Source: Carcharhinus amblyrhynchos
Lineage: Eukaryota
DNA length: 64,000 bases
Reading direction: 5' to 3'
Assembly: GCA_965287045.1 (NCBI GenBank)
Contig: OZ336888.1
Location: 26,722,001 to 26,786,000 of the forward strand
Each line of letters opens with the position of its first letter. Within the stretch, counting starts at the first letter, position 1. Made by a program: the position numbers and the translations under genes. Shown in pieces: positions 24,822 through 45,017 of this stretch. A model generated the notes under the pieces. It saw only the letters and a program-made list of their open reading frames with translations. It had not been told where the DNA came from and ran no database searches.

Positions 24822-25282
24822 TTTGTGTATGTTTGTGTATTAATGTGGCCATTTTGTCTATATATTATTTAATTGACGTTCTTGATCAGAAACACATGAA
24901 CTGTGCGTCTGTGTGGATGTAATACAAATTGATAATATGTAGATATACCTGTTACATTGTGACTGCCATGTTTTTAAACCATTTATACGCTATAAATGGC
25001 CAAATATTTAAGAACCAGAAGAGCTCAGCTGTAGTGCCTGGAATTACCCCTCAGCAGCCACTATTGCTGGAAGTCGCACATACATGGATATTGCCTAATA
25101 GTTTCAGCTTTCAACCATACAACTGCCAGGTAATGGCCACCTCCAGCAAGACAGAGTCTAATCATCTCCCTGTGACATTCAGTGATTACCATCAAAGAAT
25201 CCCCCACTGTCAACATCCTGCTGTCACCATTTACTGGAAACTTAACTGAGCCAGCCACACACATACTGTGGCTACAAAGCAG

Positions 25283-25549
25283 TCATGATGTGGAGTTTGT
25301 GTCTTTGTGCCCTGTTTGTGATCAGAACACAGTAAAAAGTCTGACAACACCAGGTTTAAGTCCAACCGATTTAACTTAAACCTGGTGTTGTCAGACTCTT
25401 TACTGTGTTTACCCCAGTCCAACGCCAGCACATCCACATTGTGATCAGAACTTCCACCCTTCTGACAAAGGAATGGCCAGTTCTGAAAGCTAGTGGCGTT
25501 TGCTACAAATAAACCTGTTGGACTTTAACCTGGTGTTGTGAGACTTCTT
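25283..25549 (+). mobile_element. Penelope-like pseudo-LTR remnant (outer element) with a decayed hammerhead
   Basis: CTGACAA-aggaatggccagttct-GAAAGCTA-gtgg...aaataaacctgttggactttaacctggtgttgtgagact. Confidence 0.7.
25329..25438 (+). mobile_element. Mini fold-back Penelope-terminus insertion with a 13-bp TSD
   Basis: 35-bp inverted arms at 25327-25361 and 25374-25408; ttgtgatcagaac at 25316-25328 and 25439-25451. Confidence 0.85.
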
Positions 25550-26193
25550 GCTATAAAGCAGGTCAGAGGCTGGGAATTTTGTGGCAAGGCACTCACCACC
25601 TGACTCCCCAGAGCCTGTCCATCAAGCCAGCAGTGTGCTGGAATGCTCTCCACTGGCCTGGATAACTGCAGCACTCAAGAAGCTCAACACAATCTAGGAC
25701 TAATCAGCTTGATGGATTGGCATCCCATCACCATCTTAAACATTCACGTCCTCCATTCCTGGCACACTGGCTGCAGCGTGTACCATCCCTGATATGCATA
25801 GCAGCGACTCACCAATTAAAGGTTTCTTCAACAACACTGTTCCATGACCTGTGCTGTCTAGACAGACACAGGCAGCAGGTGCATAGGAAAACTCCAATTC
25901 CCTTCTAAATCGCACATCATACTGACTCGGAAATGCATCACTGTGACTTTGACGAGTTGAAATCCTGGAACTCCCTACCTAACTGCAATGTGAGAGTACC
26001 TTCAAATGGAAAGCAGTGGTTAAAAGCAGCGGCTAATCATCACCAGAGAGTTAATTAGAGATGGGCCGCCTCACCTGTGATGCCCACCTACCATCCTCAA
26101 ATAATAAACAACTGTGTGGATCCTTATGGATAGCTAACTGTAAATCCTTCTGAAGCTCATACATGAAGGATGACCACTGGATTAAAGTGCAGG

Positions 26194-26385
26194 AAAAAGT
26201 CTGACAACACCAAGTTTAAATCCAACCGATTTATTTGATAGTAAACTCACTAGCTTTCGAGGTTTCCCTCTTCTTCAAACCTCAAACTAGTGAGTTCACT
26301 ATCAAATAAATCGGTTAGACTTAAACCTGGTGTTGTCAGACTTTTTACTGTGTTTACCCCAGTCCAACGCCGGCATATCCACGTC
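26194..26385 (+). mobile_element. Fold-back Penelope-terminus insertion with a 13-bp TSD and a hammerhead core on the - strand
   Basis: Inverted arms of about 60 bp; attaaagtgcagg at 26181-26193 and 26386-26398; same 3' extension accccagtccaacgcc as the 25329 element. Confidence 0.88.
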
Positions 26386-27291
26386 ATTAAAGTGCAGGGC
26401 CATGCATTAAGTTCATATTCCAGCCTATATTTTCAGTAGTTTGTGGTTATGGCCTTTGGTCCAATAATCCAGCCTTGTCTGAGGGTAATGTTCATGGTTC
26501 ACCTCATCTATAACATTTTGAAGTGTTTGAAAAAGGCCAGGAGACTCCATTTTTTTTAATACCTGCCATCAAAAAGGTTATCTCTGCTCACTGCCCATAT
26601 TGTCAACTGGATAGCTAGTCAATGTTTCATTCTGCAAGCTCAGTTCTCTGTTGTAAATTTATTATTCCATTTTGTGGAATTGACTAACTCGCACTTTATC
26701 TTTCCCCCTCATTATTTCAAAAACCATTTGCTGAACAGTGTCATTATAGGTTTCTTAGTTCTGCCTCTTCAAGCCGAAAGATTAAAGTGTGATAAAAGAG
26801 CTCTGAGGCGATTGTCCTTTGATAATTTTTGCAAGGCTACAGTTGGAGATAATGTTTCAAATGCACTTTGATGCATAAAAGTATTTGGAAGAAGCGAAAG
26901 AATGTTCTTCTTGTGATAAAATATGTGAAAGTTGCAGAATGATCCAAAGTCCTCTCAGGGTAAGGTCAATTAAAAATGTATTAATTTCGGAACATTCACA
27001 AAGAATGGGCTTAATAAATGTTTGATGAGAGTAGTAATTAGTGGTGATCAGCTTAACTATAGAATGTGGAGTTTTAAGTCTTTTGGCTGTTTTCACTTTG
27101 ATCAATGAGTCTGACCTTTGATTAAATGGAAACTAATTGTTAAACTTTTTAAATGTCACAGCTGTTATCCTAGAGTTGCTGTCATTACAATCTGATTTTT
27201 TTTAAACTGTGCATCATCTTATCAGTAACTTTGGTTATGTAGGGATTCATTTAAATGTGACCTGAATGGACATAATGCAACAGGTCCTGGA

Positions 27292-27705
27292 GTGGCACAG
27301 TGGCACAATTTTTAAGCACTGCTGCCTCACAGCTCCAGAACATCCAGAGGAAACCCACGCAGACACGGGAGAATGTGCAGCCTCTGCACACAGTGTTTGA
27401 AGCCAGGAATCGACCTGGGTTTGATTCCTGGCTTCAGTTATTGTGTGCAGAATCTGCACATTCTCCCCATGTCTGTGTGGGTTTCCTCTGGGGGCTCTGG
27501 TCTCCTCCCACAGTCCAAAAGACGTGCTAGTTAGGTGTATTGGCCATGCTAAATTGCCCCTTAGTGTCCCTGGATGTGTAGATTAAAGGGATTAGTGGGG
27601 TAAATATGTGGGGTTACAGGGATAGGGCTAGATGGATTTGTTATCGGTGCAGACTCAATGGGCCAAATAGTCGTCTCCTGCACTGTAGAGATTCTGTGAT
27701 ATGAT
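27292..27705 (+). mobile_element. HE1-type SINE with an internal inverted duplication
   Basis: Head, then an inverted V-core segment, then the normal body and tail. Confidence 0.85.
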
Positions 27706-40288: not shown

Positions 40289-41432
40289 TAAGGTACCTCA
40301 CAAGAGGCTATTGCAGAAGGTCAGGGGGCATGGAGTTGGGGGTAGGGTGTTAGCATGGATAGAGGATTGGTTGTCAAATAGGAGACAGAGTGGGGGTTAA
40401 TGGGTGCTATTCGGATTGGCGGTTGGTGACTAGTGGAGTGCCCCAGGGGTCGGTGCTGGGGCCTCAGCTATTTACCATTTATATAGATGATCTGGAGGAG
40501 GGAACCGAGTGTATGGTGTCGAAATTTGCTGATGACACCAAGATTGGTGGAAAGGCAAATTGTGCGGAGGGTGTGGAGAGTCTGCAGAAGGATCTAGATA
40601 GGCTGGGCGAATGGGCCAGGAACTGGCAAATGGAATTCAATGTTGGCAAGTGCGAGGTGGTCCACTTTGGTAGGAAGGACTATTACTTACGTGGCGAAAA
40701 ACTGCAGCAGGCGATGGTGCAGAGGGACCTCGGGGTCCTTGTGCATGAGTCGCAAAAACCCAGCCCGCAGGTGCAGCAGGTGGTCAGGAAGGCTAATGGG
40801 ATGTTGGCCTTCATGGCGAGGGGGATTGAATATAAAAGTAGGGAGGTCTTGCTGCAGCTGTATAGGGCATTGGTGAGGCCGCAGCTGGAGTACTGTGTGC
40901 AGTTTTGGTCGCCGCACTTAGACAAGGATATTTTGGCCTTAGAGGGAGTGCAGAGGAGGTTTACTAGGCTGATACCGGAGTTGAGGGGGTTGAGCTATGA
41001 GGAGAGGCTGAATAAACTAGGCTTGTACTCGTTAGAGTTTAGAAGAATGAGGGGAGATCTCATTGAGACGTATAAGATGATGAATAGGATGGATAGGATA
41101 GAGGTGGAGAGGCTCTTCCCGCTCAAAGGACAGTAGGACAAGGGGGCACAGCCTCAAGATAAAGGGGGGGTGGTTTAGAACGGAGTTGAGGAGGAACTTC
41201 TTCACTCAAAGGGTGGTGAATCTCTGGAATTCTCTGCCCGTTGAAGTGGTGGAGGCTGCCTCGCTAAATATTTTTAAGACGCGGGTTGATGGGTTTTTGA
41301 TAAGCGAGGGGATTAAGGGTTATGGGGAGAGGGTGGGAATGTGGAACTGAGCCACGACAGATCAGCCATGATCTTATTGAATGGCGGGGCAGGCTCGAGG
41401 GGCTAGATGGCCTACTCCTAATTCTTGTGTTA
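40289..41432 (+). mobile_element. Young 5'-truncated CR1 LINE retaining an open RT frame (40390-41136)
   Basis: [55 protein letters not shown]; intact 3' UTR. Confidence 0.95.
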
Positions 41433-42664: not shown

Positions 42665-45017
42665 GTCATCACAGATTGGTTGTATCAGGGAGGAACCTAC
42701 GAGGGAGTGAGCTATCTTAGATCTGGAACAATTAGGGATCTTATTGTGAGGGATCCTCTTGGGACGAGCGATCATTGTATGGTTGAGTTTTTGATGCAGA
42801 TGGAAGATGAGAAAGTAGGGTCCTGAACCTGTGATAGGATGAGAGGAATTGGCAAATGTAGATTGGGGGCACAGATTGGTTGGTAGGATGGCTGAGGAAC
42901 AGTGGAGGATTTTTAAGGACATCTTTTTCAGTGCTCAGCAGAAATACCTTCCGATGGTAAAGAAGGAATGTAGGCGAAGGGATAACCAGCCGTGGTTATC
43001 AAAGGAAATAAAAGAGAGTATTAAATTAAAAGCTGATGTGTTCAGAGTGGCTAAAAGTAGTGGGCGATTAGAAGATTGGGAAAGGTTAAAAATCAACAAA
43101 GAATGACTAAGAAGTTGATAAAGAAAGGAAGGATAGACTATGAAGCTAAACTAGCACTAAATATAAAAAAAGGACAGTAAGAGTTTTTACAAATATATAA
43201 AGAGGAGGAGGCTGGCTAGAGTGAATGTTGGACCCTTAAAGGATGAGAGGGGATTTAGTGGTGGGAGATGAGGAAATGGCTGAGGCCTTAAATAAGTTTT
43301 TTGCCTCGGTCTTCATGGAGGAGGACACGAATAGTTTACTGGATATTAAAGATAGAAGGATGGTAGGAGTTGAGGGCCTGAATGCGATTACTGTCACTAG
43401 AGAGGTAGTGCTTGATAGACTAATGGGACTGAAGGGTGGACAAGTCCCCAGGACCGGATGGAATGCATCCCAGGGTTCTGAAGGAAATGGCAGAGGTGAT
43501 AGTAGATGCCTTAGTGATTATTTACCAAAATTCACTGGATTCCGGGGAAGTGCCGGAAGATTGGAAAACGGCTAATGTTACGCCGCTGTTTAAAAGTAGC
43601 AGACAAAAGGCAGGGAATTATAGGCCGGTTAGTTTAATGTCTGTAGTTGGAAAAATGCTTGAATCCGTCATCAAAGAAGAAATAGCGAAGCACCTAGAAG
43701 AGAATGGTTTGATAGAGCAGATGCAGCACGGATTCGTTAAGGGGAAGTCGTGTTTGACGAATTTGTTGGATTTCTATGAGGATGTGACTAGTGCGGTAGA
43801 TAGAGGGGAACCGGTGGATGTGTTTCTAGATTTTCAAAAGGCGTTTGATAAGGTGCTTCAGAAAAGGTTGCTACAGAAGGTTAGGGTGCACGGATTTGGG
43901 GGTAAGGTGTTAGCGTGGATAGAGGATTGGTTGTCTAATAGGAAGCAGAGAGTTGGTATCAGTGAGTGCTATTCTGATTGGCGGTTGGTGACTAGTGGAG
44001 TGCCGCAGGGATCGGTGCTGGGGCCTCAGCTATTTAGCATTTATATAGATGATCTGGAAGATGGGGACTGAGTGTAGGGTGACGAAATTTGCTGATGATG
44101 TGAAGATGAGTGGTAAATCAAATTGTGCGGAGGGTGTGGAAGGTCTGCAGAGGGATCTGGATAGGCTGAGCGAGTGGGCGAGGACCTGGCAGATGGAGTA
44201 TAATGTTAGCAAGTGTGAGGTTATCCACTTTGGCAGAAATAATAGTAGGAGGGATTATTATTTAAAAGGTGAAAAGCTGCAGCATGCTACGGTGCAGAGG
44301 GACCTGGGGGTCCTTGTGCACGAGTCGCAAAAACGCAGTCTGCAGGTGCAGCAGGTGATCAAGAAGGCGAATGGAATGCTGGCCTTTATAGCGAGGGGGA
44401 TAGAATACAAAAGCAGGAAGGTCTTGCTGCAACTGTACACGGCACTGGTGAGGCTGCAGCTGGAGTAATGTGTGCAGTTTTGGTCGCCACACTTGCGCAA
44501 GGATATTTTGGCCTTGGAGGGAGTGCAGAGGAGGTTCACTAGGCTGATACCGGAGATGAGGGGGTTAGACTATGAAGAGAGACTAAATAGACTGGGCCTG
44601 TACTCGTTGGAGTTTAGAAGGATGAGGGGGGATCTTATAGAGACGTATAACATAATGAAAGGGATGGATAGGGTAGAGGTAGAGAGATTCTTCCCGCTTA
44701 GAAAGGATAGCAGGACGAGAGGGCACAGCCTCAAGATAAGGGGGGGGGGGACAGTTTAGATCGGAGTTGAGGAGGAACTTCTTCACTCAAAGGGTGGTGA
44801 ATCTCTGGAATTCTCTGCCCGTTGGTGGTGGAGGATACCTTGCTAAATATATTTAAGTCACGGGTAGATAGGTTTTTGATAGACAAGAGAATTAAGGGTT
44901 ATGGGGAGAAAGTGGGAAAGTGGAACTGATCCACTTCAGATCAGCCATGATCTTATTGAATGGCAGGGCAGGCTCGAAGGGCTAGATGGCCTACTTCTCC
45001 TATTTCTTATGTTGTAT
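42665..45017 (+). mobile_element. CR1 LINE of about 2.3 kb, same family as 40289-41432
   Basis: [63 protein letters not shown]; a few frameshifts. Confidence 0.95.

What the first reader, a model, noticed from the sequence alone, without database searches (positions are those of the whole stretch)
26181..26398. Fold-back Penelope-type mini-insertion (about 190 bp) with an exact 13-bp TSD and a hammerhead core beside the hairpin apex
Seen: attaaagtgcagg flanks both sides (26181-93 and 26386-98). Between them are inverted arms of about 60 bp and a 3' extension (actgtgtttaccccagtccaacgccggcatatccacgtc). The minus strand of 26249-26277 reads tTGAAGA-A-GAGG-GAAA-CCTC-GAAA-GC-TA-G. That is a CUGANGA/stem II/GAAA/UH layout with a perfect GAAA-capped stem II and a palindromic AGCT in place of stem III. 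Established: PLE pseudo-LTRs carry minimal type I hammerheads thought to act as dimers, and PLE insertions often have an inverted 5' partial LTR. Inference: this is an ORF-less product of PLE retrotransposition whose inversion junction falls at the ribozyme, removing core C3 and the 5' strand of stem I. This copy should be inactive but points to an intact ribozyme in the master element.
Basis: partly seen in the sequence, partly recalled or inferred. Interest (0 to 1): 0.7.

Follow-up and report, generated by a model that had tools for sequence, protein, structure and literature searches.

The report
Fold-back stump of Penelope retrotransposon
This 192-base mirror-image insert is the leftover end of a very common Penelope-type jumping gene, written in twice back to back in a layout already described for that class; its self-cutting RNA motif is cut short and predicted to be inactive, so the copy itself is ordinary.

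Summary
Confirmed, and a known kind. The 13-bp duplication, 67-nt arms and 39-nt tail are real. The insert is two separately 5'-truncated copies of the pseudo-LTR of a Penelope-like element (PLE), joined head to head. The family has at least 17,109 tail matches, 2,583 exact intact hammerhead cores, and intact 893-aa RT + GIY-YIG ORFs with a Neptune-type zinc finger. Three more distant relatives carry the empty site; closer ones carry the insert. Fold-backs are the family norm (122 of 192 sampled), almost all with different junctions, so this is no self-copying mini-element. Family data favour priming from both nicked strands on one RNA lineage. Arms share ribozyme haplotype (39 of 40 young), either arm can be longer, and both stop about three times more often across the ribozyme, but never at its cleavage site (0 of 192). 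The scan reported this same family several times on other DNA of this genome. Inverted pLTR, tail and minimal hammerheads are all in print.

The parts
26181..26193 (+). Target-site duplication, left copy (13 bp)
   Evidence: single copy in the empty site of three more distant organisms
26194..26277 (-). Inverted, tail-less pLTR arm; starts about 38-42 nt before the ORF start codon and stops at U4 of the hammerhead core (27 nt upstream of the cleavage site)
   Evidence: 86% to the pLTR of intact unit L111
26246..26277 (-). Truncated minimal type I hammerhead: UGAAGA, extra A, stem II GAGG/CCUC, GAAA, GC-UA, 3' strand of stem I; C3 and 5' strand of stem I missing; predicted cleavage site between 26251 and 26250
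26277..26346 (+). Direct pLTR arm, starting in loop II of the ribozyme (15 nt upstream of the cleavage site); A26277 is shared with the inverted arm
26347..26385 (+). 39-nt PLE tail, ending at the position of the ORF start codon in intact copies
26386..26398 (+). Target-site duplication, right copy
25329..25438 (.). Second, independent 110-bp fold-back insertion of the same family with its own 13-bp TSD (25316-25328, 25439-25451); no ribozyme left

Best explanation
The insert is a 192-bp remnant of one insertion of an endonuclease-bearing, Neptune-type Penelope-like element: two 5'-truncated copies of its ribozyme-bearing end lie head to head between a target-site duplication, and they were likely made by reverse transcription primed from both nicked target strands. 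Shown: the anatomy, the link to RT + GIY-YIG ORFs, the empty site in relatives, and the family statistics. Inferred: the element's protein cuts the target with a stagger of about 12 nt; one nick primes at the tail end next to the start codon, the other about 38 nt upstream; both copy the same RNA or transcripts of the same source; both tend to stop in the structured ribozyme region; repair joins the two cDNA ends, here on one shared base. The copy is predicted to be inert, because C3 and half of stem I are gone and any transcript would fold into the long hairpin. The intact motif in full pLTRs is likely a real, weak, dimer- or protein-assisted ribozyme, by analogy to published PLEs.
For: pLTR-ORF tandems with intact 893-aa ORFs, tail ending at the ATG; RVT_1 E 9.7e-10 and GIY-YIG E 8.2e-5, both above Pfam cut-offs. 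Of 192 tail-anchored insertions, 122 are adjacent fold-backs, 36 simple, 29 complex, 5 censored; the outer end of the inverted arm lies 33-40 nt before the ATG in 104 of 122. Exact TSD of 10 nt or more in 129 of 192, 12-14 nt in 100 of them. 120 distinct junction pairs among 122. The inverted arm reaches further 5' than the direct arm by more than 10 nt in 53 of 122 and by more than 50 nt in 20, which a cDNA folding back on itself cannot template without resection. Arms share stem II haplotype within one mismatch in 39 of 40 young and 14 of 19 older pairs; shuffles gave means 8.3 and 2.5, maxima 18 and 9. Ends per base at risk are 3.4 and 2.6 times higher across the ribozyme than downstream and upstream. 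Arms stop at similar positions (median offset 9 nt), not similar lengths (38-nt offset rejected, p 6e-8). Stem II covaries (A-U 12, G-C 10 of 23). In vitro the anole PLE protein cuts and extends both strands and starts at two sites that bracket the tail (PMC11167929, parts 1-2 read).
Against: No biochemistry or RNA data for this family. Arm lengths are correlated (Spearman 0.70), which coupled models such as antisense self-priming with trimming also predict. Five of 19 older pairs differ by more than one letter in stem II, and two young pairs (L279, L286) differ at two linked markers, so two templates may sometimes be used. The sample comes from one contig and needed an exact tail anchor; the bins for the ribozyme test were fixed after seeing the histogram. 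The empty-site joint skips 202 rather than the expected 205 bases. Rfam models do not recognise the motif. Covariation counts include shared ancestry.
Confidence: 0.72

Rival explanations
1. Self-priming: one cDNA, or an antisense template as Arkhipova and colleagues proposed, folds back at a palindrome (here the ribozyme stems) and is copied back, giving the head-to-head layout from one priming event.
For: Proposed for head-to-head PLE junctions in PMC3846280 (passages read). Arms share haplotype, lengths correlate, 46 of 122 pairs end within 10 nt of each other, and junction overlaps of 1-8 nt are common.
Against: The inverted arm is longer by more than 50 nt in 20 of 122 and the direct arm in 14. 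The outer end of the inverted arm is fixed near 38 nt before the ATG. Simple insertions without inversion also stop more often in the ribozyme (12 ends over 919 bases against 6 over 1250 and 6 over 1240).
Confidence: 0.17
2. The 190-bp fold-back is a non-autonomous mini-element (MITE-, SINE- or retrozyme-like) that spreads as a unit, possibly through a hairpin or circular RNA.
For: The 40 best genome hits are all similar-sized fold-backs; 50 of 122 fall at an estimated 150-250 bp. PLE-derived retrozymes are reported in vertebrates (bioRxiv 10.64898/2026.07.22.740005, part 1 and passages read).
Against: selected for likeness to the query. Junctions are nearly all unique (120 of 122); sizes run continuously up to several kb; the layout is head to head, not a tandem of monomers.
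Confidence: 0.04
3. Short arms end where the template RNA ends: either at the ribozyme cut or at a transcription start inside the pLTR just upstream of stem I.
For: Ends are enriched from +5 to -49 around the cleavage site. A TATA-like word lies about 30 nt upstream of stem I in intact pLTRs (reading by eye). pLTR promoters are suggested in PMC3846280.
Against: 0 of 192 direct arms and 0 of 122 inverted arms end exactly at the cleavage site; 8 of 192 lie within 2 nt. No sharp peak at the putative start either. PMC11167929 found no RNA ends at the cleavage site in the anole.
Confidence: 0.07

Closest known systems
Complex insertions of canonical EN+ PLEs: inverted 5'-truncated copy plus 30-40-bp tail (Craig et al. 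2021, PMC8557442, passages; Arkhipova et al. 2013, PMC3846280, passages)
   Same: Head-to-head pLTR arms, tail on one end only (39 nt), TSD, 5' truncation, tandem pLTR-ORF masters.
   Different: Both arms are cut inside the pLTR, leaving no coding sequence; TSD mode is 12 nt against 8-10 in the rotifer examples; fold-backs are the majority of sampled copies.
[quoted passage not shown]
   Same: CUGANGA, an extra base before stem II, G10.1-C11.1, GAAA, palindromic AGCU without helix III, many covarying variants in one genome, opposite-strand pairs 100-700 bp apart.
   Different: Stem II is short (3-5 bp) against 7-8 bp in Schistosoma; this copy lacks C3 and half of stem I; sharks are not named in the parts I read.
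Poseidon of Anolis carolinensis, PAc (Frangieh et al. 2024, PMC11167929, parts 1-2 of 4 read)
   Same: Two start sites that bracket the tail; both strands cut and extended; ribozyme just upstream; no sign of ends at the cleavage site.
   Different: PAc's ORF starts at stem II, here about 100 nt downstream of the cleavage site; this family has the Neptune/Nematis zinc-finger linker; no AT-rich target bias is evident (TSD GC 43% against 42% in the window).
Non-LTR retrozymes (bioRxiv 10.64898/2026.07.22.740005, part 1 and passages read)
   Same: Short, ORF-less, PLE-derived, hammerhead-bearing.
   Different: Retrozymes are tandem units that amplify as units; this is a head-to-head pair made anew at each insertion.

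Membership tests
Canonical EN+ Penelope-like element | Single ORF with RT and C-terminal GIY-YIG, linked to this repeat | tested here: met
   893-aa ORFs between pLTRs in L111, L112; RVT_1 and GIY-YIG above cut-off. GIY-YIG was just under cut-off for L057 and not found for L048.
Canonical EN+ Penelope-like element | CCHH motif with two cysteines between the GIY and YIG words | tested here: met
   VY-LIR-C-KKG-C-PEAW-YIG followed by histidines, read; definition from PMC8557442
Canonical EN+ Penelope-like element | pLTRs from tandem arrangement, inverted 5'-truncated copy, 30-40-bp tail, TSD | tested here: met
Canonical EN+ Penelope-like element | Insertion into a previously empty site | tested here: met
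   Contigs of X13, X15, X18 bridge the site, net skip 202 bases; X21 gave no cover
Neptune clade | CX2-5CxxC zinc-finger linker before the endonuclease | tested here: met
   C-X4-C-X2-C; shared by Neptune and Nematis
Neptune clade | RT phylogeny places it in Neptune rather than Nematis | not tested
   no reference set fetched, no tree built
Minimal type I hammerhead (family pLTR) | Conserved core, extra base before stem II, G10.1-C11.1, palindromic 15.2-16.2, covarying stems | tested here: met
   no Rfam match
Minimal type I hammerhead (this copy) | C3 and both strands of stem I present | tested here: not met
   junction at U4; stem II pair probability 0.0007 in the insert
Minimal type I hammerhead (family pLTR) | Self-cleavage as dimer or with protein help | not testable with these tools
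   a two-copy fold swapped the stem strands and did not give the double-hammerhead form as its lowest-energy fold
Retrozyme or MITE-like mini-element | A fixed unit that recurs at many loci, or tandem monomers | tested here: not met
   120 distinct junction pairs in 122

The most novel reading that the evidence does not exclude
The thousands of fold-back stumps are a natural read-out of PLE integration: one RNA is reverse-transcribed twice from the two nicks of a 12-nt staggered cut, and the hammerhead acts as a folded roadblock that stops both enzymes rather than as a cutter that sets the RNA end. That would explain the head-to-head layout and give the ribozyme region a non-catalytic effect.
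Probability: 0.35. Interest if true: 0.55.

Novelty: new member of a known kind. Interest (0 to 1): 0.25.

Why it matters
The copy itself matters little: it is one of at least 17,000 and predicted inert. The family matters as test material. How PLEs make inverted ends and what their hammerheads do are left open in PMC3846280, PMC8557442 and PMC11167929. Here many ribozyme haplotypes act as barcodes that show which template each arm came from, and intact ORFs exist for biochemistry.

Tried and rejected
Rfam: no hammerhead hit on the window stretch (only sub-threshold microRNA hairpins) or on an intact copy. Solved structures: only a weak group II-like RT match, E 0.28. Sequencing runs: no RNA holder listed, so expression is untested. 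The first empty-site test in four closer organisms found the insert present instead; X21 did not cover the flanks. The first breakpoint mapping was discarded because some reference copies held inverted arms; it was redone with a clean panel. BLAST breakpoints against one young copy gave a false cluster near -91 to -96. A pile-up of ends at the cleavage site was sought and not found. A mini-element spreading as a unit was rejected. Rows dropped before counts: of 220 loci, 3 segmental duplicates, 5 already held, 10 of a sister family (picked by eye), 4 internal tandem pLTRs and 6 flank duplicates (one of these, L085, may not be a true duplicate) left 192. Literature searches that found no paper on shark PLE hammerheads or on two-nick priming in PLEs: (listings only; open-access library; bioRxiv supplements closed and PMC supplements not opened, so shark motifs may be in the supplements of PMC4209133 or the retrozyme preprint).

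Full report
Observation. The sequence shows an exact 13-bp repeat at 26181-26193 and 26386-26398 around 192 bases. Inverted arms of 67 nt are 91% complementary and the minus strand folds with z -17.6 against 200 shuffles. The minus strand carries UGAAGA, an extra A, GAGG-GAAA-CCUC, GAAA and GC-UA-GUGAG between 26277 and 26246. The base at the C3 position belongs to the other arm.

Family. The window lies in a 2.9-Gb genome. The insert drew 2,462 first-look candidates, of which 40 were scored. Copies that reach further upstream run into a GIY-YIG frame. A protein search found long open frames, and L111 and L112 hold tandem pLTR-ORF units with intact 893-aa ORFs whose ATG follows the tail directly. 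Pfam gives RVT_1 at E 9.7e-10 and GIY-YIG at E 8.2e-5. The CCHH cysteines and a C-X4-C-X2-C linker are present, the latter marking Neptune or Nematis by PMC8557442. Both window arms match this pLTR at 86-88%, and the window's own ribozyme variant continues into the ORF 3' end in L118. Two disjoint tail anchors match 7,454 and 9,655 places exactly, a lower bound of 17,109 that includes internal tandem pLTRs.

Ribozyme. One 34-nt form with stem I, CTGANGA and stem II occurs 2,583 times, control 0. Natural variants differ mainly in stem II and its loop. On 23 variants, 93.8% of cells pair, 14 cells change on both sides, and slid controls reach at most 51%; shared ancestry inflates such counts. 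The features that Cervera and De la Pena list for minimal PLE hammerheads are all present (PMC4209133). An intact copy forms stems I and II in its pLTR context with probabilities of 0.95 or more; in the window insert stem II has 0.0007. One young copy folded otherwise in a longer context (L111). Rfam found no hammerhead. Cleavage was not tested.

Empty site and age. In three closer organisms single contigs run from both unique flanks into the element, and in a fourth from the right flank. In three more distant organisms one contig bridges the site: joint 26193 to 26396 in X15 and X18, and the same net 202 bases in X13. The expected skip is 205, so three bases beside the target differ. The window's arms differ at 6 of 68 columns, like the older group (176 of 3,282) and unlike the young group (35 of 3,628).

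How fold-backs arise. I sampled tail-anchored copies in genomic order on contig C1: the first 100, 90 of the first 100, and 30; 192 remained after the exclusions listed under Tried and rejected. Of these, 122 have an adjacent inverted arm whose outer end is 25-47 nt before the ATG, 104 of them at 33-40. Exact TSDs of 10 nt or more were found in 129, with 48 of 12 nt, 30 of 13 and 22 of 14. Junctions are almost all unique, so each fold-back is made at insertion. Either arm may be longer (53 inverted, 23 direct, 46 within 10 nt). Both arms usually carry the same ribozyme haplotype (39 of 40 young, 14 of 19 older; the one young miss is a truncated arm misread by the pattern). Together with the two start sites and two-strand activity of the anole protein (PMC11167929), this fits priming from both nicks on one RNA lineage better than a cDNA folding back on itself. 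That step is inference. Self-priming on an antisense template (PMC3846280) is weakened, not excluded.

Junction at the ribozyme. Direct arms end 67 times over 5,553 bases at risk inside the ribozyme, against 25 over 7,093 downstream and 40 over 8,523 upstream. Inverted arms and simple insertions show the same rise. The two arms stop at similar positions, median offset 9 nt, and a 38-nt offset expected from equal lengths is rejected. At least one arm ends in the ribozyme in 63 of 122 fold-backs, both in 29; the window copy (-15 and -27) is one of this kind. No arm ends exactly at the cleavage site, so cleavage does not appear to set these ends. Stalling at the folded RNA, end joining at its palindromes, or a nearby transcription start could each contribute. 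The bins were set after viewing the data and the sample is from one contig.

Comparison and verdict. Inverted 5'-truncated copies, the one-sided tail, TSDs and pLTR hammerheads, including opposite-strand pairs, are all described. Eight earlier notes of this scan on other DNA of this genome reach the same class and, in several, the same two-ended model; they are not independent support, and my reading was set before I saw them. The insert is a new member of a known kind and predicted inert. Interest 0.25, resting on the family's value as a test of PLE integration.

Noticed in passing
window 25271-25561: An older insertion of a sister PLE family: 12-bp TSD with one mismatch (25271-25282, 25550-25561), an inverted tail stub of about 14 nt and a long tail-less arm with a decayed hammerhead near 25462-25495. 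The 110-bp fold-back at 25329-25438 inserted into it (read by eye). A 14-nt tail arm cannot template the long arm.
   Followed up: partly
window 27354-27481: Another hairpin, apparently an inverted pair of a SINE or LINE tail (label from recall).
   Followed up: no
window 40363-41136 and 43433-44468: Reverse-transcriptase fragments (RVT_1) that do not match this PLE at DNA level.
   Followed up: partly
L111, L112: Intact tandem pLTR-ORF units with inverted partners; a young subfamily with about 1% arm divergence suggests recent activity.
   Followed up: partly
L062-L314, stem II: Stem II and its loop vary far more than neighbouring pLTR sequence, with at least 11 haplotypes among 40 young insertions; PMC4209133 notes the same unexplained variability.
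   Followed up: partly
L091, L135, L140, L185, L279, L286: Insertions whose two arms differ at linked subfamily markers, possible cases of two different templates in one event.
   Followed up: partly
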